In this document: piece by piece, positions 10,185 through 29,120 of the stretch
How positions within the stretch are numbered: the stretch's first letter is position 1
Layout of the letters: each line of letters starts with the position of its first letter
NCBI GenBank assembly: GCA_963667465.2
Contig: CAXXDN010000001.1
Location: 736,001-800,000, forward strand
Direction: 5' to 3'
Source: Dehalococcoidia bacterium
GTDB lineage: Bacteria > Chloroflexota > Dehalococcoidia > UBA2979
DNA length: 64,000 bases
Notes under the pieces: model-generated
What the model saw: the letters and a program-made list of their open reading frames with translations, nothing else
Told to the model about the DNA's origin: nothing
Database searches by the model: none
Translations under genes and position numbers: made by a program

Positions 10185-10202
10185 GTTGCCGCGCTTCTGC
10201 GT

Positions 10203-10240
10203 CCCCTCTCCCCGGGCGGGAGAGGGTTGGGGTGAGGGGG
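10203..10240. repeat. REP-like palindrome CCCCTCTCCC-Nn-GGGAGAGGGTTGGGGTGAGGGG
   Basis: Same motif recurs near 12543, 12768/14279, 28918, 36353 and 36512. Confidence 0.85.
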
Positions 10241-10922: not shown

Positions 10923-11996
10923 ATGAGTGCCGCCCAGCCCTCCGCCGCCCAGACTCCCGCCGCCCAGACTCCCGCCGAGGACCGCGGCGGAGCACTCGCC
11001 GATCGCTTCGGGCGGCCGCTGCGCGACCTGCGGATCTCGGTCACCGACCGCTGCAACTTCCGCTGCCGCTACTGCATGCCGCGCGAGGTCTTCGGGGCCG
11101 ACTTCGAGTTCCTGCCGCGCGACGAGATCCTGACATTCGAGGAGATCGCGCGCCTCGCGGGCATCGCCGCGCAGCTCGGTGTGCGCAAGATCCGGCTGAC
11201 CGGCGGCGAGCCGACGCTGCGCGCGGACCTGCCGGGGCTGGTGCGCCTGCTCAGGGAGGCCGCGCCTGCCGTCGAGCTGGCGATGACCACCAACGGCTCG
11301 CGCCTGACCACGCTCGCCGGCCCGCTCGCCGCGGCCGGCCTCGACCGCGTCACGGTCTCCCTCGACACCCTCGACGACGCCATCTTCCGCGCGATGAACG
11401 ACGCCGACTTCCCGGTGGCGCTGGTGCTCGAAGGCATCGAGGCCGCCGCCGCGGCCGGGCTCGCGCCGGTCAAGGTCAACGCCGTCGTCAAGCGCGGCGT
11501 CAACGACGCGGGCGTCGTCGAGCTTGCGCGGAACCTCAGGGGCGCGGGCGCGGTGCTGCGCTTCATCGAGTACATGGACGTCGGCGTCACCAACGGCTGG
11601 CGACTCGACGATGTCGTGCCGGCGCGCGAGCTGGTCGAGCGCATCGACGCCGAGCTGCCGATCGAGCCCGTCGAGGCGTCGTACCGCGGCGAGGTCGCGA
11701 AGCGCTGGCGCTACCGCGACGGTGCGGGCGAGATCGGCTTCATCACCTCGGTTTCCGCACCGTTCTGCGGCGACTGCACGCGCGCGCGCATCTCCGCCGA
11801 CGGCAGCCTCTACACCTGCCTCTTCGCCGTCGCCGGCACGGACCTGCGCGCACCGCTGCGCGAGGGCGCCGATGACGCCGCGCTGGCGGCGCTGCTGACG
11901 GGCGTCTGGCGCGAGCGCGAGGACCGCTACTCGGAGATCCGCTCCGCGGACACCGGGGAGATCCCGCGCATCGAGATGTCGTACATCGGTGGCTGA
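10923..11996 (+). CDS. moaA: GTP 3',8-cyclase MoaA (radical SAM)
   Basis: [29 protein letters not shown]-terminal MSYIGG. Confidence 0.96.
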
Positions 11997-11998
11997 CG

Positions 11999-12499
11999 GT
12001 GGTTGAGTCCGCGGCCGACGACCGCACGCTGTCCCACCTCGACGAGCGCGGCCACTCGCGGATGGTCGACGTCTCGGACAAGGACGTGACGCGGCGCGAG
12101 GCGACGGCACGCGGGCGTGTCGCGATGAGCGCCGGGACGCTGTCCCTCATCGGCGAGGGGGCACTGCCCAAGGGCGACGTGCTGGCAGCCGCGCGCCTCG
12201 CCGGGATCATGGCCGCCAAGCGCACGCCCGACCTGATCCCGCTCTGCCACCCGCTGCCGATCAGCGGCGTGGAGGTGCGGCTCTGCCTCGACCCCGAGGA
12301 TCCCGCGGTCGAGATCGAGGCGACCGTACGCACCAGCGCGCAGACCGGCGTGGAGATGGAGGCGCTGACCGCTGTCTCCGTCGCCGCGCTCACGATCTAC
12401 GACATGTGTAAAGCCGTACAGCGCGACATGCGCATCGAGGCGGTCCGCCTCGTCGCCAAGTCCGGCGGCCGCTCCGGCGACTACCGCGCGGAGTCGTAG
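11999..12499 (+). CDS. moaC: Cyclic pyranopterin monophosphate synthase MoaC
   Basis: [31 protein letters not shown]. Confidence 0.96.
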
Positions 12500-12538
12500 C
12501 CGCCGCCCCACGCGATCCGGCCGCGGTCCGGCCTCAAT

Positions 12539-12788
12539 CCGGCCCCCTCTCCTGGGGGAGAGAGGGTGGGGGTGAGGGGGAGAAGCCACGGGTGGCGCGA
12601 CTTCCCGAGGACGCACCTCGGCTTGTCGTGGGGGGCGCAGCCCCCCACACCCCCACCCCGGACGAGCACGCTGCGCGGCTCGGGCCCACCCACCCGCCCT
12701 CGGAGTTTCTTTCTGTGGGGGCGCAGCCCCCACGCCCTCCTCGGAGGTTTCGGGGGCGCATCGTCCGGCCCCCTCTCCTGGGGGAGAG
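12539..12788. repeat. Mosaic REP/BIME-like intergenic element (continues 14279-14432 beyond the IS110)
   Basis: REP units plus GGGGGCGCAGCCCCC hairpins; internal blocks shared with 29007-29116 and 36468-36523. Confidence 0.8.
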
Positions 12789-12809
12789 ACACCCCAGGGT
12801 GCTAAGGCG

Positions 12810-14033
12810 TCAAGCGGCGAGCTGTTCGCGGTCGTGGCGGTGCGCCCAGGCGGTGGCCTCGTCGTAGGGGCGACGTGCCTTCAGGCAGCCGTGGAGGTAG
12901 CCGACGAGGCGGTTGCCGAGAGCGCGCAGCGCCTGGTGGTGGAGGTCGCCCGCGGCGCGGCGGCGGTGGTAGAAGTCATGGCAGCCGGGGCTCGCCTGCA
13001 GCGAGCAGAGCGCCCAGCGGTCCACGGCGTCGGCGAGCCGGCGGTTGCGCACGAAGCGGGCGCGCACGCTGCGCTTGCGGCCCGATGCTACGGTGAGCGG
13101 CGAGGTGCCGGCGTAGTTCCTGCGGGACTTCGCCGACTCGTAGCGTTCGGGGTCGTCCCCGAACTCGCCGAGCACCCGGGCGCCGAGCACGACACCGAGA
13201 CCGGGCAGGGAACGGTAGATTGCGGCGTCCGGGTGCTGCTCAAAATGGCTCGTGAGCGCGGCCTCGAGCTCCGTAAGCTGACGGTTGATCTCGCTGATCT
13301 GCGCGACCGCCGCGCGGGTGCTCGCGGCGAACGCCCGGCTCACGGCAGGCGGCGCCTCGAGTTGCGGGGAGCGCAGCGCGTCGCGCACCGCGGCGGCGCG
13401 CCGCTCGAGGTTGCGCTGACGTCCGCCGCGGCGCAGCGCCGAGCGGATCTTCGACGTGCTCAGGCGCGCCGCCTCGCGCGGCTCGCTCGCCCGCGCCAGC
13501 ACGCCCAGGGCGTCGCCGTGCGCGAGGCTGGGGAAGGCCTGCAGGGCAGCCGGGAAATACTCCCTGAGGGCGTTGCGCAGCCGGTTGGTCTGGCGCACGC
13601 GGTCCCAGATCAGCTGCTGGTGGGCGCGGGCGAGGATGCGCACCGCGGCAGCCTCGTCGCTGTCGCCGGCCAGCGGACGGTGGTTGTGGCGGTCGGTGCG
13701 CACGAGGTCGGCGAGCAGCTTCGCGTCGGCGGCGTCGGACTTGGCGCCGCCCAGGTGGTGACGCTCACGGTAGCGCGCCGCCGAGCGGGGGTTGATCGCG
13801 TAGACGCGGTAGCCGGCCGCGAGCAGGGCCGTGACCCAGGGTCCGCGGTCGGTCTCGATGCCGACCACGACCGCGCCCGGGTCTGAGGCGTGCTCGGCAA
13901 CCAGTTCGTGCAGCACGGCGACGCCCGCGACGCCCTCGGGCAGCCGCCTGGCGGCGAGCCGTTCGCCGGCCTCGTTCATGAGCTGGACATCGTGGTGGTC
14001 TTCGGACCAGTCGTCACCGACGTAGAGGGTCAT
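12810..14033 (-). CDS. IS110 family DEDD recombinase/transposase
   Basis: VGDDWS, VGIET, KSDAADA (DEDD); SLPGLG...GEFGD...YAGTSPLTVASG with the catalytic Ser. Confidence 0.95.
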   Translation of the reverse strand: MTLYVGDDWSEDHHDVQLMNEAGERLAARRLPEGVAGVAVLHELVAEHASDPGAVVVGIETDRGPWVTALLAAGYRVYAINPRSAARYRERHHLGGAKSDAADAKLLADLVRTDRHNHRPLAGDSDEAAAVRILARAHQQLIWDRVRQTNRLRNALREYFPAALQAFPSLAHGDALGVLARASEPREAARLSTSKIRSALRRGGRQRNLERRAAAVRDALRSPQLEAPPAVSRAFAASTRAAVAQISEINRQLTELEAALTSHFEQHPDAAIYRSLPGLGVVLGARVLGEFGDDPERYESAKSRRNYAGTSPLTVASGRKRSVRARFVRNRRLADAVDRWALCSLQASPGCHDFYHRRRAAGDLHHQALRALGNRLVGYLHGCLKARRPYDEATAWAHRHDREQLAA

Positions 14034-14059
14034 CGTGCCTCGCTTTCCTGCGCTTCGTG

Positions 14060-14270
14060 CTGCTGTTTGCGACCTGCCGGGCTGGTCCTGCGACGGCCTA
14101 ATGGACCAGTGCTCTCGGGCACGACACCCCAGGAGTGCTGTGGACCACCCGGACGCACCAGCCGGGGCACGGTCTCTCCCTGGAGATCGCAGTGTCTCGG
14201 GGAGGGGCAGTGCTCACCGGCCGGCCGGTCCAAGACCAGTCTCCCAGATCGCTCCAGGGTCCGGTCGAAC
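14060..14270 (-). ncRNA. Putative IS110 bridge RNA (ends approximate)
   Basis: Contains segments matching both element ends (14123-14133, 14098-14104) and both target flanks (14174-14180, 14199-14207). Confidence 0.75.
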
Positions 14271-14445
14271 CCCATTAGGGGGGGGGTGAGGGGGCGCGCC
14301 CGGCGCTGCTCGCCGCTGCTCGCCGCAGCGATCGGTTGTTGCGCCCTCGCGGGTGCTCGCCCGGCGGGCGTCGGGAGTTGGTGCGCCCTCGATACTCCCG
14401 AGGGGGCGTGTGGGGGCGCAGCCCCCACACGCCGGACGCGCGCGG

Positions 14446-15273
14446 CTAGCGGGCGTGGTGGTCGGCGGGGCGGATCGAGCCGTCGTCGGCGGGGCTCGAG
14501 GACTCCAGGTAGCCCTGCACCAGCAGCGCGACGCGGCCGCGCTCGATCGCCGCGGCGGCGGGCAGCGGCTCGCCCTCGGCGTCCCCGGCGCCCGAAGCGG
14601 ACACGGCAGCGTGGGCGGCGAGCTGGGGCAGCGCCATGCGCGCGCGGCTGTCCCCCTCCATGCGCAGCAGCGGCTCGCAGATCGTCCAGGCGGCGCAGCC
14701 CTCGTGGCGGGCCGGGTCGATACTCGCGTAGGCGCACCAGTCGAGCGCGCGCTCGCGCACGTCGTAGTGCGAGAACAGCCGGTACTCGTGATCCCACCAG
14801 TCGCGCTCGAAGCAGGCGGGCGACCAGTCGATCGGCAGCGGGTTGTCCGAGCGCGCCTGCGGATCGAGCGCGATCAGCCAGAGCGAGACGGCGAGGGCGA
14901 GCGGCGTCTGGTGGTACGGTGCGCCGCCTTCGGTGGTCCAGGAGAGCGCGTGGGCGGCGGAAGAGGCCCGCGCGACGCGCTCGTCGATCACGAGCCCCGC
15001 CGCGATGAGCGTGCGCGTCACCAGCAGGTGGCCGAGGAAGCGCGCCTCGTCGTCGGAACGGCTCCGCTCGCCGCTCGGCAGCGTGACCGCTGCGTCCTCG
15101 TCCGGACCGAAGCAGGCGAAGGTGCTGGTCAGGCCGCAGTCGTGGCCGGGCGCGCCCGGCTGGCCCTGCGCGGCGAGGAGCGTGTCGAGGGCGCCCGGAT
15201 CGCCGACGGGCGCGCCGTCGCGCACTCCCGGCCAGAGCTGCAGGGCGAGGTCGAGGACTGGGCTCTCGGACAC
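14446..15273 (-). CDS. Hypothetical protein
   Basis: Protein-like composition and codon usage from GTG 15273; no motif recognised. Confidence 0.6.
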   Translation of the reverse strand: MSESPVLDLALQLWPGVRDGAPVGDPGALDTLLAAQGQPGAPGHDCGLTSTFACFGPDEDAAVTLPSGERSRSDDEARFLGHLLVTRTLIAAGLVIDERVARASSAAHALSWTTEGGAPYHQTPLALAVSLWLIALDPQARSDNPLPIDWSPACFERDWWDHEYRLFSHYDVRERALDWCAYASIDPARHEGCAAWTICEPLLRMEGDSRARMALPQLAAHAAVSASGAGDAEGEPLPAAAAIERGRVALLVQGYLESSSPADDGSIRPADHHAR

Positions 15274-15360
15274 GCCTCGCACGCTACGAACGCACACCCT
15301 CGCGGTCAACCTCGCGGGCTCGCGTGGCCGCCCGATGGCAGGCCGCGTACGATCGGCCCG

Positions 15361-16224
15361 ATGCCACCGATCGGCCCCGCTCGCCTGCTGCTTGCCTGCT
15401 GCGTGCTCGTCGCGGCGGTAGCTTGCGGCGGCTCGGAGGCGGACCCCGCGGACCAACCGGTGACCGTGAGGTTCACGGGCTCCCCGACGGCGACACTCTC
15501 GTCGGCCGGCACCCCGACGGCGACAGTGTCGCCCTCCGCGACGCCAACCGGGGCCGAGGCGCCTGTCCCGACGGCGCCACCCGCTTCGGAAGCGACGCCC
15601 ACCGCAACACCGGCGCCGACTGCCACCCCGGAGTCCGCCACACCGACCCCGACGCCTGCGGCAACACCGCTACCCACACCGACTGAGACAGCGACCCCGA
15701 CGGCAGCACCAACTCCCACTGTCACACCCTCGGCGACTGAGACAGCGACCCCGACGGCAACGCCGATCCCCAGCGTCACACCCTCGGCGACCGTGCCGCC
15801 GGAGCCGACCGCGACGACGGGTGCGCTGCCCCTTGAGGCGCTCCCCCACATCGAGTTCGCACGCGGCGACGGGGCGGCGGTGTCACTGCCGATCGAGATC
15901 CCGCCGCGCAGCGAGTACTCCATCGGGTTGTCGGGGCGCTACGAGCTGGGCGAGCGGGGGATGCTCTTCCACTACGAGGAGGAGGGACGCCGCTCGTTCT
16001 GGATGAAGAACACGCATATCGACCTCGACATCGCCTTCATCGGCGCGGACTTCGTGATCCGGGAGATCTTCGGCATGGAGGCGGAGTCGCTCGAGATTCG
16101 CCGTCCCGGCGACGTCTATCAGTACGCCGTCGAGGCGCCGTCGGGCTGGTACGCCGCGAACGGGGTGCAGGTTGGCGACACAGCGCGCTTTGCCTTCGAC
16201 CTCGCGGACTACCCGGTCGAGTGA
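15361..16224 (+). CDS. DUF192 domain lipoprotein with Pro/Thr-rich linker
   Basis: Lipobox-like AVAC; GL.GR...GMLF...FWMKNT.I.LDIAFI; YAVEAP.GW. Confidence 0.85.
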   Translation: MPPIGPARLLLACCVLVAAVACGGSEADPADQPVTVRFTGSPTATLSSAGTPTATVSPSATPTGAEAPVPTAPPASEATPTATPAPTATPESATPTPTPAATPLPTPTETATPTAAPTPTVTPSATETATPTATPIPSVTPSATVPPEPTATTGALPLEALPHIEFARGDGAAVSLPIEIPPRSEYSIGLSGRYELGERGMLFHYEEEGRRSFWMKNTHIDLDIAFIGADFVIREIFGMEAESLEIRRPGDVYQYAVEAPSGWYAANGVQVGDTARFAFDLADYPVE

Positions 16225-28917: not shown

Positions 28918-29120
28918 CCCCCTCACCCTAACCCTCTCCCGCCAGGGGAGAGGGGATCGGAGGGGCGCCCCTCGATGCGCGTCGGTCCGGCTGCGGATCC
29001 GGCGGGGGCGTGGGGGCGGAGCCCCCACATGAAGGAAATCCGAGGGTGGGTGGGTGGGCCGGAGCGGCGCGCAGCGCACGCTCGTCCGGGATGGGGTGTG
29101 GGGCGCAGCCCCCGCAGGCA
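28918..29120. repeat. Mosaic REP/BIME-like intergenic element
   Basis: REP at 28918-28954; 29007-29116 is a reverse-complement homolog of ~12630-12737. Confidence 0.8.

What the first reader, a model, noticed from the sequence alone, without database searches (positions are those of the whole stretch)
12787..14278. IS110 with a directly readable bridge RNA programmed against the host REP palindrome
Seen (minus strand): the 245-bp upstream non-coding end holds a donor-type loop CCTGGGGTGTC-gtgc-ccgaga-gcac-tggt-CCATTAG. CCTGGGGTGTC (14123-14133) is identical over 11 nt to the element end at 12788-12798, and CCATTAG is the reverse complement of the other end CTAATGG. A second loop carries CCCCTCCCC (14199-14207; 8/9 match to the left target flank up to the core C) and GGGAGAG (14174-14180; reverse complement of core plus right flank CTCTCCC). 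Removing the element at the CT core restores a REP with the same GGGAGAG-N8-TGAGGGG spacing as the copy at 10203-10240. Joining the ends creates TTGACG-N18-TCTAAT, a plausible junction promoter. Established: IS110 recombinases such as IS621 use bispecific bridge RNAs with a CT core, and IS621 targets REPs. Inference: this is an intact bridge recombinase with its own donor/target code, aimed at a C-run REP family that offers many safe landing sites.
Basis: partly seen in the sequence, partly recalled or inferred. Interest (0 to 1): 0.82.

Follow-up and report, generated by a model that had tools for sequence, protein, structure and literature searches.

The report
IS110 element with REP-aimed bridge RNA
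This is a recently active IS110-family insertion sequence whose own guide ("bridge") RNA is programmed for a repeated hairpin in its host genome: a clear natural example of a mechanism described in 2024, not a new kind of system.

Summary
Window 12787-14278 (minus strand) is a 1490-bp IS110-group element plus a duplicated CT core. It has a 407-aa DEDD/Tnp recombinase, a 245-nt left end, a 21-nt right end and no terminal inverted repeats. The genome holds 10 essentially identical copies.

The left end folds, by comparison with 36 relatives, into two internal loops flanked by covarying stems. One loop copies the element's own ends. The other matches the REP-like target CCCCNCC|CT|CTCCC.

- **Guides track flanks:** across 68 related insertions in 20 guide classes, the target loop changes with the flanks.
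- **Occupancy falls with mismatches** to the predicted 14-mer: 1 of 1, 6 of 50, 2 of 77, 1 of 379, and none of about 319,000 other CT sites.
- **Handshake nucleotides** behave as in IS621.

- Only about 9 of the 11 donor-guide bases are conserved.
- The junction -35 is conserved, but the -10 (TCTAAT) lacks the consensus A.

Verdict: a new member of a known kind. One copy and two relatives have an unexplained CT|AACCC right flank.

The parts
12787..14278 (-). Whole IS110-group element including both copies of the CT core (1490 bp element plus 2 bp core duplication)
   Evidence: 10 copies in the own genome: 9 identical and 1 with a single SNP at element position 124. Boundaries are defined by where the flanks diverge. 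No terminal inverted repeat longer than 4 nt.
14277..14278 (-). Left copy of the CT core
   Evidence: CT is the only sequence shared by both junctions in all 10 copies.
14034..14276 (-). Left non-coding end (LE) encoding the bridge RNA
   Evidence: 245 nt including the core. Alignment with 36 distinct related LEs and covariation of the stems.
14234..14266 (-). 5' stem-loop of the bridge RNA
   Evidence: Helices 1 and 2 (95.5% and 67.6% of cells paired).
14210..14226 (-). Target-binding loop, outer stem, 5' strand
   Evidence: Pairs with 14157-14170. 14 pairs, 93.1% of cells paired, 5 pairs with compensatory change.
14199..14207 (-). Left target guide (LTG) CCCCUCCCC: 7 nt for the left target plus 2 nt facing the core
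   Evidence: Lies in the internal loop. The homologous 9-mer in relatives equals their left flank plus CT.
14183..14198 (-). Target-binding loop, inner hairpin GAGA-N8-UCUC
   Evidence: 4 pairs, 99.3% of cells paired, 3 of 4 pairs with compensatory change.
14174..14180 (-). Right target guide (RTG) GGGAGAG, the reverse complement of core CT plus CTCCC
   Evidence: Relatives' RTGs match their right flanks at 4.69 of 5 positions against 2.25 of 5 cross-class.
14172..14173 (-). Target-loop handshake guide AC, complementary to the last two bases (G, T) of the left donor
   Evidence: Position and rule taken from Hiraizumi 2024 passages. Sequence.
14157..14170 (-). Target-binding loop, outer stem, 3' strand
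14135..14152 (-). Donor-binding loop, outer stem, 5' strand
   Evidence: Pairs with 14077-14094. Helices 5 and 6 (86.1% and 99.1% paired; 8 pairs with compensatory change).
14123..14133 (-). Left donor guide (LDG) CCUGGGGUGUC, identical to the right end through core C
   Evidence: The G-to-A change GGGATGT occurs in both the right end and the LDG in the L088, L089, L091 and L093 classes.
14109..14122 (-). Donor-binding loop, inner hairpin GUGC-CCGAGA-GCAC
   Evidence: The 4 pairs are invariant in 37 of 37 sequences.
14098..14104 (-). Right donor guide (RDG) CCAUUAG, the reverse complement of CTAATGG at the left end
   Evidence: Invariant in relatives.
14096..14097 (-). Donor-loop handshake guide GC; the G is complementary to target position 7 (C)
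   Evidence: The first handshake base pairs with target position 7 in 74 of 76 insertions over 24 guide classes. This includes 3 classes where position 7 is G and the handshake base is C.
14077..14094 (-). Donor-binding loop, outer stem, 3' strand
12810..14033 (-). Recombinase gene, 407 aa (DEDD RuvC-like domain plus Tnp domain)
   Evidence: Pfam PF01548 (E 6.9e-38) and PF02371 (E 7.1e-11). NCBIfam NF033542, 185.8 bits against a cut-off of 140. A family profile hits IS621 (8wt6, E 4.7e-11) and ISCro4 (9t56, E 1.4e-11).
12808..12813 (-). TTGACG, candidate -35 of the circle-junction promoter; overlaps the stop codon
   Evidence: TTGAC is conserved in 27 of 28 distinct right ends, 17-19 nt from the junction TCTAAT.
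12789..12809 (-). Right non-coding end (21 nt), ending in the left donor CCTGGGGTGT
12787..12788 (-). Right copy of the CT core
14279..14296 (-). Left half of the interrupted REP (CGCCCCCTCACCCCCCCC)
   Evidence: Same motif as about 40 uninterrupted copies.
12762..12786 (-). Right half of the interrupted REP (CTCCCCCAGGAGAGGGGGCCGGACG), i.e. the rest of the hairpin
10199..10240 (.). Uninterrupted REP copy in the window, used as the empty-site comparison

Best explanation
This is a recently active IS110-group insertion sequence. Its recombinase has a DEDD RuvC-like domain and a serine Tnp domain.

Its 245-nt left end encodes a bridge RNA with two internal loops:
- **Donor loop.** LDG (U)GGGGUGUC, RDG CCAUUAG and handshake base G recognise the joined ends of the excised circle (...GGGGTGT-CT-AATGG...).
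- **Target loop.** LTG CCCCUCC+CC, RTG GGGAG+AG and handshake bases AC recognise CCCCNCC|CT|CTCCC, which lies in the 5' arm of a REP-like hairpin.

Recombination at the CT core then puts the element into the hairpin arm and duplicates CT.

**Shown here:** the anatomy; the complementarity; covariation of stems, guides and the handshake base across relatives; and the site specificity of 10 copies in this genome.

**Inferred from IS621 work:** the circular intermediate, transcription of the RNA from a junction promoter, RNA-protein binding, and the order of strand exchange.
For: - **Protein.** Both Pfam domains match full length. NCBIfam 'IS110 family RNA-guided transposase' scores above its cut-off. 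A family profile hits the IS621 and ISCro4 structures. In the printed ISCro4 alignment, the family's GDD, GIET, KSDAxDA and SG motifs align with GID, an E, KTDAVDA and SG; the invariant residues there are D7, E60, D100, D103 and S317.
- **Architecture.** LE 245 nt against RE 21 nt; no terminal inverted repeats; CT at both junctions.
- **RNA structure.** On 37 distinct LEs my bridge-type structure has 90.9% of cells paired, against 28-45% when the partners are slid. 20 of 48 pairs show compensatory change, and 0 of 500 shuffles reach the observed values. RNAalifold finds the target-loop stems unaided.
- **Guides track flanks.** Over 68 insertions in 20 guide classes, own-class matches are 5.15 of 7 (left) and 4.69 of 5 (right). 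Cross-class matches are 2.78 of 7 and 2.25 of 5. Relatives 92% identical in protein carry LTG UGGCUCC and sit in CCGGCTCC|CT.
- **Handshake base.** The donor-loop handshake base pairs with target position 7 in 74 of 76 insertions, the rule reported for IS621.
- **Own genome.** Occupancy by mismatches to the predicted 14-mer is 1 of 1, 6 of 50, 2 of 77, 1 of 379, and 0 of about 319,000. No insertion is in the opposite REP arm (CGGCCCC 30, CGGCTCC 11 copies), which has the same right half.
- **Recent activity.** 9 copies are identical and 1 has a single SNP.
- **Chance.** Both donor matches together occurred in 0 of 20,000 shuffles.
Against: - No RNA, circle or protein data exist for this element. 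No listed sequencing run is RNA, and only assembled contigs could be laid.
- The single-sequence fold is no better than shuffles (z = -0.51), and it pairs the LTG with the RTG (CUCCC/GGGAG). The free RNA of this particular element may therefore close its target loop.
- LTG position 9 is C opposite core T, and LTG position 5 (U) mismatches the G of the commonest REP variant. 5 of 10 occupied sites carry that mismatch. IS621 work reports a strong preference for pairing with both core bases.
- The junction -10 TCTAAT lacks the consensus A at position 2, and the -35 overlaps the stop codon, so part of its conservation may be coding.
- One copy has a right flank (AACCC) that matches the RTG at only 3 of 5 positions.
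- Rfam 15 gave no match on the LE at E up to 1.
Confidence: 0.93

Rival explanations
1. Target choice is made mainly by the recombinase recognising the REP hairpin structure. The complementarity of the RNA loop to the target is secondary or a by-product of living in a C/G-run repeat.
For: All 10 insertions are in the 5' arm of a hairpin. A preprint on ISPpu10 reports that a target stem-loop adds specificity beyond base pairing; I saw only its abstract and outline. GGGAGAG alone is common by chance in this composition (1845 of 20,000 shuffles).
Against: The same hairpin read on the other strand offers the identical right half with left halves CGGCCCC (30 copies) and CGGCTCC (11 copies), yet holds 0 of 10 insertions. 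Sister elements whose LTG reads UGGCUCC or CGGACCC sit exactly there. Relatives with unrelated guides sit in unrelated sites that match their guides.
Confidence: 0.04
2. The element is a real IS110, but the left-end RNA is only a leader or regulator of recombinase expression. The matches to the ends are remnants of end recognition at the DNA level.
For: Older literature assigned a regulatory role to IS110 non-coding ends, as cited in Durrant 2024. An Rfam antisense sRNA family (Ms_AS-4) matches inside the gene. There are no expression data here.
Against: A leader model does not predict covariation of both target-loop strands with the flanks, of the LDG with the right end (GGGGTGT or GGGATGT), or of the handshake base with target position 7. 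It also does not predict conserved internal-loop geometry with compensatory stem changes.
Confidence: 0.02
3. The copies are inactive relics, spread by duplication of REP-containing segments or homogenised by gene conversion rather than by RNA-guided insertion in this genome.
For: The end of contig C2 repeats C1:4027-7802 at 99.6% identity over 3.8 kb, so some repeats here are assembly overlaps or segmental duplications. Identity among copies could in principle come from gene conversion.
Against: The 10 copies have different flanking sequence beyond the REP and an intact ORF with all catalytic motifs. Occupancy is graded by match to the guide, which duplication does not predict.
Confidence: 0.02

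Closest known systems
IS621 of Escherichia coli (IS110 group): the reference bridge RNA recombinase (Durrant et al. 2024, PMC11208160; Hiraizumi et al. 2024, PMC11208158)
   Same: Same two protein domains and catalytic motifs. Long LE and short RE. CT core. LE-encoded RNA with a 5' target loop and a 3' donor loop. The left guides have the sense of the top strand and the right guides are antisense. Two-nucleotide handshake guides follow the core complement, with the donor-loop G facing target C7. The target lies inside a REP. A -35 in the RE is joined to a -10 across the circle junction.
   Different: Too distant for a single-sequence match to the PDB chains; only a family profile reaches them, at E 4.7e-11. 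The RTG is 7 nt here against 4 nt natively in IS621. The LTG's last base mismatches core T. Guides, ends and REP family are different, and the host is a high-GC Dehalococcoidia-like genome.
ISPpu9 and ISPpu10 of Pseudomonas putida (IS110 family, REP or stem-loop targets)
   Same: Multi-copy IS110 elements inserted into repeated palindromic intergenic sequences. For ISPpu10 the target stem-loop is part of recognition. I saw the search listing and abstract for ISPpu9 and the abstract and outline for ISPpu10.
   Different: I made no sequence comparison. Here the insertion point is inside the 5' arm of the hairpin, and sister lineages use either strand of the same palindrome. Whether hairpin structure matters here is untested.
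IS1111 group / seekRNA elements
   Same: Same recombinase family and the same principle of an RNA that reads both target and donor.
   Different: IS1111 elements have a long RE that carries the RNA, plus 7-17 bp subterminal inverted repeats. Here the RNA is in the LE, the RE is 21 nt, and there is no inverted repeat longer than 4 nt.

Membership tests
IS110 family, IS110 group (bridge RNA recombinases) | N-terminal DEDD RuvC-like domain (PF01548) with the D, E, D, D residues | tested here: met
   PF01548 covers residues 5-161, profile positions 1-155 of 155, E 6.9e-38. D7, E60, D100 and D103 are invariant in 13 relatives. In the printed ISCro4 alignment the motifs containing them align with GID, an E and KTDAVDA. 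Equating these with IS621 D11, E60, D102 and D105 rests on the paper's numbering.
IS110 family, IS110 group (bridge RNA recombinases) | C-terminal Tnp domain (PF02371) with a conserved serine | tested here: met
   PF02371 covers residues 273-356, E 7.1e-11. S317-G318 are invariant, and the SG motif aligns with the SG of ISCro4.
IS110 family, IS110 group (bridge RNA recombinases) | No terminal inverted repeats; short core repeated at both junctions | tested here: met
   The longest inverted match between the ends is 4 nt. CT is at both junctions of all 10 copies.
IS110 family, IS110 group (bridge RNA recombinases) | Long left non-coding end and short right end | tested here: met
   245 nt against 21 nt. 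The criterion comes from Durrant 2024.
IS110 family, IS110 group (bridge RNA recombinases) | LE RNA with two internal loops closed by conserved stems | tested here: met
   90.9% of cells paired, 20 of 48 pairs with compensatory change. The single-sequence fold alone is uninformative.
IS110 family, IS110 group (bridge RNA recombinases) | Target loop: 5' strand has the sense of the left target plus core; 3' strand is antisense to core plus right target | tested here: met
   Exception: LTG position 9 is C opposite core T. Among 24 guide classes this position pair reads CT in 18, CC in 4 and CA in 2.
IS110 family, IS110 group (bridge RNA recombinases) | Donor loop complementary in the same way to the joined right and left ends | tested here: met
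   Both matches together arose by chance in 0 of 20,000 shuffles.
IS110 family, IS110 group (bridge RNA recombinases) | Handshake guides pairing with position 7 of the non-cognate DNA | tested here: met
   Donor-loop handshake base: 74 of 76 insertions, with 3 covarying classes. Target-loop AC against donor G,T. The second handshake base mostly does not pair.
IS110 family, IS110 group (bridge RNA recombinases) | Promoter reconstituted across the circle junction | tested here: inconclusive
   -35 TTGAC in 27 of 28 right ends at 17-19 nt from TCTAAT. But TCTAAT lacks A at position 2, and the -35 overlaps the stop codon. No sigma-70-like site was found in the integrated arrangement.
IS110 family, IS110 group (bridge RNA recombinases) | Circular intermediate, transcribed RNA bound by the recombinase, reprogrammable recombination | not testable with these tools
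   Only assembled contigs of public runs were available, and none is on record as RNA.
REP-like repeat (target) | Short palindromic sequence present in many copies | tested here: met
   189 matches to N7-CTCTCC-loop-GGNGAGG on both strands, 9 of them the IS's own right junctions. A palindrome can count once per strand. 42 matches to CCCCNCCCTCTCCC.
REP-like repeat (target) | Extragenic location | not tested
   Checked only for the window copy. It lies after moaA-moaC (ending at 12499) and before a gene with a DUF192 domain.

The most novel reading that the evidence does not exclude
Sister IS lineages in these Dehalococcoidia-type genomes share one donor code (identical ends and donor loop) but carry different target loops. 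They split the two strands of one REP palindrome between them, and any lineage's bridge RNA could move any lineage's circle. On this reading, the recurrent right junction CT|AACCC (own copy C2:1583211-1584702, L018, L019) records either trans-guidance by a variant RNA with RTG GGGUUAG or a left-half-only ('half-match') insertion. The hairpin partner at these sites predicts CT|CTCCC, and the AA equals the first two bases of the left end.
Probability: 0.2. Interest if true: 0.55.

Novelty: new member of a known kind. Interest (0 to 1): 0.32.

Why it matters
It adds no new mechanism, but it is an unusually clean natural record of bridge RNA targeting. It includes:
- an occupancy gradient against guide mismatches within one genome;
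- natural retargeting between 92%-identical elements to the opposite strand of the same palindrome;
- independent support for the handshake rule in a clade far from IS621;
- natural tolerance of a mismatch at the second core base.

These points bear on specificity rules for engineered bridge recombinases. The 7-nt RTG and GC-rich guides may interest people looking for orthologues. For genome annotation, the 10 copies and the REP family explain the contig breaks and repeats in this assembly.

Tried and rejected
- **Single-sequence fold of the LE.** -108.7 kcal/mol against a shuffle mean of -106.1 (z = -0.51). It is not informative and pairs the LTG with the RTG. I replaced it with comparative analysis.
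- **Rfam scan of 12000-15000 at E up to 1.** No family matched on the LE. The only hits were Ms_AS-4 and a sub-threshold guanidine-II match, both inside the gene.
- **Single-sequence PDB searches.** No IS110 hit. The family profile did hit.
- **Public runs.** No RNA holder is listed, and only Logan contigs were available. A 'skips 1491' joint at 12786/14278 appears in one contig in each of 3 runs from 2 studies. It has only 23 nt on the short side, one extra letter and a second skip nearby, so it is most likely another REP copy. I do not use it as evidence of excision. Contig depths were not used.
- **Class-wide pattern search for the odd right junction.** Only the own genome matched, out of 401 genomes searched.
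- **Metagenome scan for the same 15-mer.** At least 119 stretches matched and 80 were fetched. 11 of the 80 passed my right-end filter upstream, one of them doubtfully. In the 5 of those where a left end could be read, the RTG is GGGTTAG, so AACCC is their cognate target. This does not explain the odd copy here: all 10 RNAs in this genome read GGGAGAG, and no second lineage with this donor loop is assembled.
- **Natural REP variant as the source of CT|AACCC.** No uninterrupted CCNCCCTAACCC was found in the own genome or in L019's genome. L018's genome had 4, no more than the reversed-pattern control (3). A segmental-duplication origin for the partial copy at the end of C2 could not be told apart from an assembly overlap.
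- **A 3-bp subterminal repeat (ACC...GGT) flanking the donor.** I considered it by eye and dropped it because it is not kept in relatives.
- **Supplementary files of papers** were closed. Durrant 2024's supplementary tables of predicted bridge RNAs may list relatives of this element, and I could not check them.
Full report
**What is there.** On the minus strand, window 12787-14278 holds a 407-aa ORF (14033-12810). A 245-nt non-coding stretch precedes it and 21 nt plus CT follow it.
- The protein has both IS110 domains full length: PF01548 at E 6.9e-38 and PF02371 at E 7.1e-11.
- It scores 185.8 bits (cut-off 140) on NCBIfam NF033542, 'IS110 family RNA-guided transposase'.
- Single-sequence searches of solved structures found nothing relevant. 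A profile of 13 relatives hits ISCro4 transposase (9t56, E 1.4e-11) and IS621 transposase (8wt6, E 4.7e-11).
- D7, E60, D100, D103 and S317-G318 are invariant in the family. In the printed ISCro4 alignment the motifs holding them align with GID, an E, KTDAVDA and SG.
- The two ends share no inverted repeat longer than 4 nt.

**Copies and insertion sites.** The window's genome (2 contigs, 2.97 Mb, 93.6% complete) holds 10 full-length copies. Nine are identical, and one has a single C-to-T change at element position 124, in the linker between the two loops.
- A partial copy at the end of contig C2 lies in a 3.8-kb stretch that is 99.6% identical to C1:4027-7802. It is probably the same locus, or a very recent duplicate, rather than an eleventh insertion.
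- Nine of the 10 copies have the flanks ...CCCCTCACCCC(C)NCC | CT ... CT | CTCCC(loop)GGGAGAGGGGGCCGGA. CT is the only sequence common to both junctions.
- Removing the element restores a hairpin whose 5' arm (CCCTCTCCC) contains the insertion point.
- The hairpin motif N7-CTCTCC-loop-GGNGAGG occurs 189 times on the two strands, 9 of them the IS's own right junctions. Because it is a palindrome, one repeat can be read on both strands. Left halves are then CCCCGCC (34 copies) on one strand and CGGCCCC (30) or CGGCTCC (11) on the other.
- The window copy lies between moaA-moaC and a gene with a DUF192 domain.

In 20,000 dinucleotide-preserving shuffles of the left-end interior, a copy of the last 9 nt of the right end through core C occurred 39 times. 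The complement of the first 7 nt of the left end occurred 12 times, and both together never. GGGAGAG alone occurred 1845 times, so that match needs other support.

**Structure.** Its energy is no better than shuffles (z = -0.51), and it pairs CUCCC of the left target guide with GGGAG of the right one. This is a caveat: in this element the two strands of the target loop are complementary to each other.

Comparison settles the matter.
- A scan of one genome per species returned 243 relatives, of which 80 loci were kept. Their recombinases are 67-92% identical to this one. Most are from Dehalococcoidia metagenome-assembled genomes and a few from Actinomycetota.
- They give 36 further distinct left ends. 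On the 37-sequence alignment, RNAalifold by itself finds the outer and inner stems of the 5' loop.
- A bridge-type structure that I wrote has 90.9% of cells paired against 28-45% when partners are slid by 1-3 columns. 20 of 48 pairs show change on both sides, the covariation score is 0.249 against at most 0.085 when slid, and 0 of 500 shuffles reach the observed values. That structure comprises a 5' hairpin, the target-loop outer and inner stems, and the donor-loop outer and inner stems.
- All four guide segments fall in the internal loops. The structure was derived partly from the window sequence, which favours it somewhat against the slid controls.

**Guides covary with DNA.**
- *Donor side.* All relatives share the ends GGG(G/A)TGT-CT-AATGG and the donor loop. 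The one variable donor position changes together: GGGATGT in both the right end and the LDG in the L088, L089, L091 and L093 classes, and G opposite A in L097, which allows a G-T wobble. Identity between LDG and right end beyond about 9 nt is not kept.
- *Target side.* The 9 nt before the inner stem and the 7 nt ending in AG after it differ among 20 guide classes and follow the flanks. Examples are UGGCUCC-CU with CCGGCTCC|CT, CAACAAC-CU with CAACAAC|CT, and GCGGU-AG with CT|ACCGC.
- Over 68 insertions with both flanks readable, own-class identity is 5.15 of 7 (left) and 4.69 of 5 (right). Cross-class identity is 2.78 of 7 and 2.25 of 5. Twelve of the 80 loci were left out of that count because an end was missing from the fetched DNA. 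One class (L061/L062) fits badly on the left (1 of 7), apparently through a one-base shift.
- By homology, the window's left target guide is CCCCUCC plus CC. Its U faces target position 5 (the variable -3 base), and its last C faces core T. Among 24 classes these last two positions read CT in 18, CC in 4 and CA in 2. IS621 work reports a strong preference for pairing with both core bases, so this clade seems more tolerant. That tolerance is an inference.

**Handshake guides.** In IS621, the two bases 3' of each right guide pair with positions 6-7 of the other DNA after strand exchange. Position 7 covaries across orthologues, and pairing with the cognate DNA blocks the reaction (passages of PMC11208158).
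- Here the target loop has AC after GGGAG-AG. These bases are complementary to T and G at the end of the left donor and not to the target's C.
- The donor loop has G after CCAUU-AG, complementary to target C7.
- Across 24 classes and 76 insertions, that base pairs with target position 7 in 74 cases. These include three classes where the target has G and the RNA has C. The second handshake base mostly does not pair.

**Specificity inside this genome.** I scored every CT on both strands against the predicted 14-mer CCCCTCC-CT-CTCCC.
- The only perfect site is occupied (1 of 1).
- 6 of 50 one-mismatch sites are occupied.
- 2 of 77 two-mismatch sites are occupied.
- 1 of 379 three-mismatch sites is occupied.
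- None of about 319,000 other CT sites is occupied.

Uninterrupted CCCCNCC sites have G at position 5 in 34 of 36 cases. Occupied CCCCNCC sites have G 5 times and C, A and T once each. The numbers are small, but they fit a guide with U there. No copy is in the opposite arm of the palindrome, although it offers the same right half.

**Sister lineages use the other strand.** Relatives with LTG UGGCUCC (L021-L024, L072; 91-92% protein identity) or CGGACCC (L082) sit in TCCGGCTCC|CT|CTCCCC...GGGCGGGGGTGAGGGG. This is the reverse complement of the site used by the CCU(C/U)GCC lineages (L025, L029, L042). Both kinds occur in the same assemblies: L072 with L042, and L082 with L025.

**Promoter.** When the ends are joined, TTGACG (12808-12813) lies 18 nt from TCTAAT.
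- TTGAC is present in 27 of 28 distinct right ends at a 17-19 nt spacing. This includes distant relatives whose C-termini differ.
- It overlaps the stop codon here.
- TCTAAT lacks the A at position 2 that the scan tool, and most sigma-70-type promoters, require.
- No promoter-like site is found in the integrated arrangement.

A junction promoter is therefore plausible by analogy with IS621 but not shown.

**Unexplained.** The copy at C2:1583211-1584702 has a normal left flank (CCCCGCC|CT) but the right flank AACCCGCCGGGGAGAC. L018 and L019 (with L020) likewise have AACCC where the other hairpin arm predicts CTCCC.
- The two changed bases equal the first two bases of the left end after the core.
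- Uninterrupted sites of this kind were not found in the own genome or in L019's genome.
- Some metagenomic relatives have RTG GGGUUAG, for which AACCC is the cognate target. No such RNA is assembled in this genome.
- A preprint reports 'half-match' insertions by IS621, in which one arm plus the core suffices. A left-half-only event is the simplest reading, but it does not explain why the same two bases recur.

**Comparison and verdict.** This element works like IS621 and meets every sequence-level criterion of the IS110 group that I could test. It is not an IS1111-type element: the RNA is in the LE, the RE is short and there are no subterminal repeats. REP targeting by IS110 elements is established for IS621 and the P. 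putida elements. It is therefore a new member of a known kind. It is of moderate interest as a well-resolved natural case and for the side observations above. Expression, the circular form and RNA dependence remain untested. The only public data reachable were assembled contigs, among them sponge metagenomes, with no RNA run listed.

Noticed in passing
own genome C2:1583211-1584702 (locus L098); also L018 and L019/L020: The right junction reads CT|AACCC instead of the guide-predicted CT|CTCCC, although the other hairpin arm still predicts CT. The AA equals the first two bases of the left end after the core. No uninterrupted site of this kind was found in the own genome or in L019's genome.
   Followed up: partly
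L021-L024, L072, L082 versus L025, L029, L042: Closely related elements with different left target guides insert into opposite strands (arms) of the same REP palindrome. Both kinds occur within one assembly.
   Followed up: partly
window 13128-13209 (+): Rfam Ms_AS-4 (Actinobacteria sRNA) matches at 65.1 bits, above its gathering score of 50, antisense to the conserved Tnp-domain part of the recombinase gene. It may simply reflect conserved coding sequence.
   Followed up: no
window 14174-14207 (-): The two strands of the target loop (CUCCC and GGGAG) are complementary to each other, so the free RNA may close this loop. Relatives with other guides do not share this feature.
   Followed up: partly
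L020 and L026: In these two related copies no CTAATGGG left end is found and the target-loop region aligns to unrelated sequence. L020 keeps the donor loop; L026 keeps only its 3' part. They look like truncated or disrupted elements.
   Followed up: no
own genome, e.g. window 28927-28959; C1:35611, C1:764927: A second REP variant reads CCCCCTCACC-CTAACC-CT-CTCCC...GGGGAGAGGGGATCGGA (about 8 copies). None is occupied by this element.
   Followed up: partly
own genome, last 3.8 kb of C2 versus C1:4027-7802: The two contig ends repeat each other in reverse orientation at 99.6% identity, running into a copy of the element. This is likely an assembly break at the IS or a recent duplication. It slightly inflates counts of empty REP sites.
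   Followed up: partly
own genome C2:27011-27138, C1:460189-460316, C1:223757-223884 (L013-L015): Three identical 128-nt stretches are 71% similar to part of the recombinase gene, which may indicate a second, distant IS110-type element in three copies.
   Followed up: no
window 10923-12499 (+) and 14353-16224 (+): Neighbours of the insertion: moaA (Radical_SAM plus Mob_synth_C) and moaC upstream, and a gene with a C-terminal DUF192 domain on the other side.
   Followed up: yes
public runs X4, X7, X8, X13: Several runs that hold most of this stretch are labelled sponge metagenome. This fits a sponge-associated host, but the contigs give no further information.
   Followed up: no
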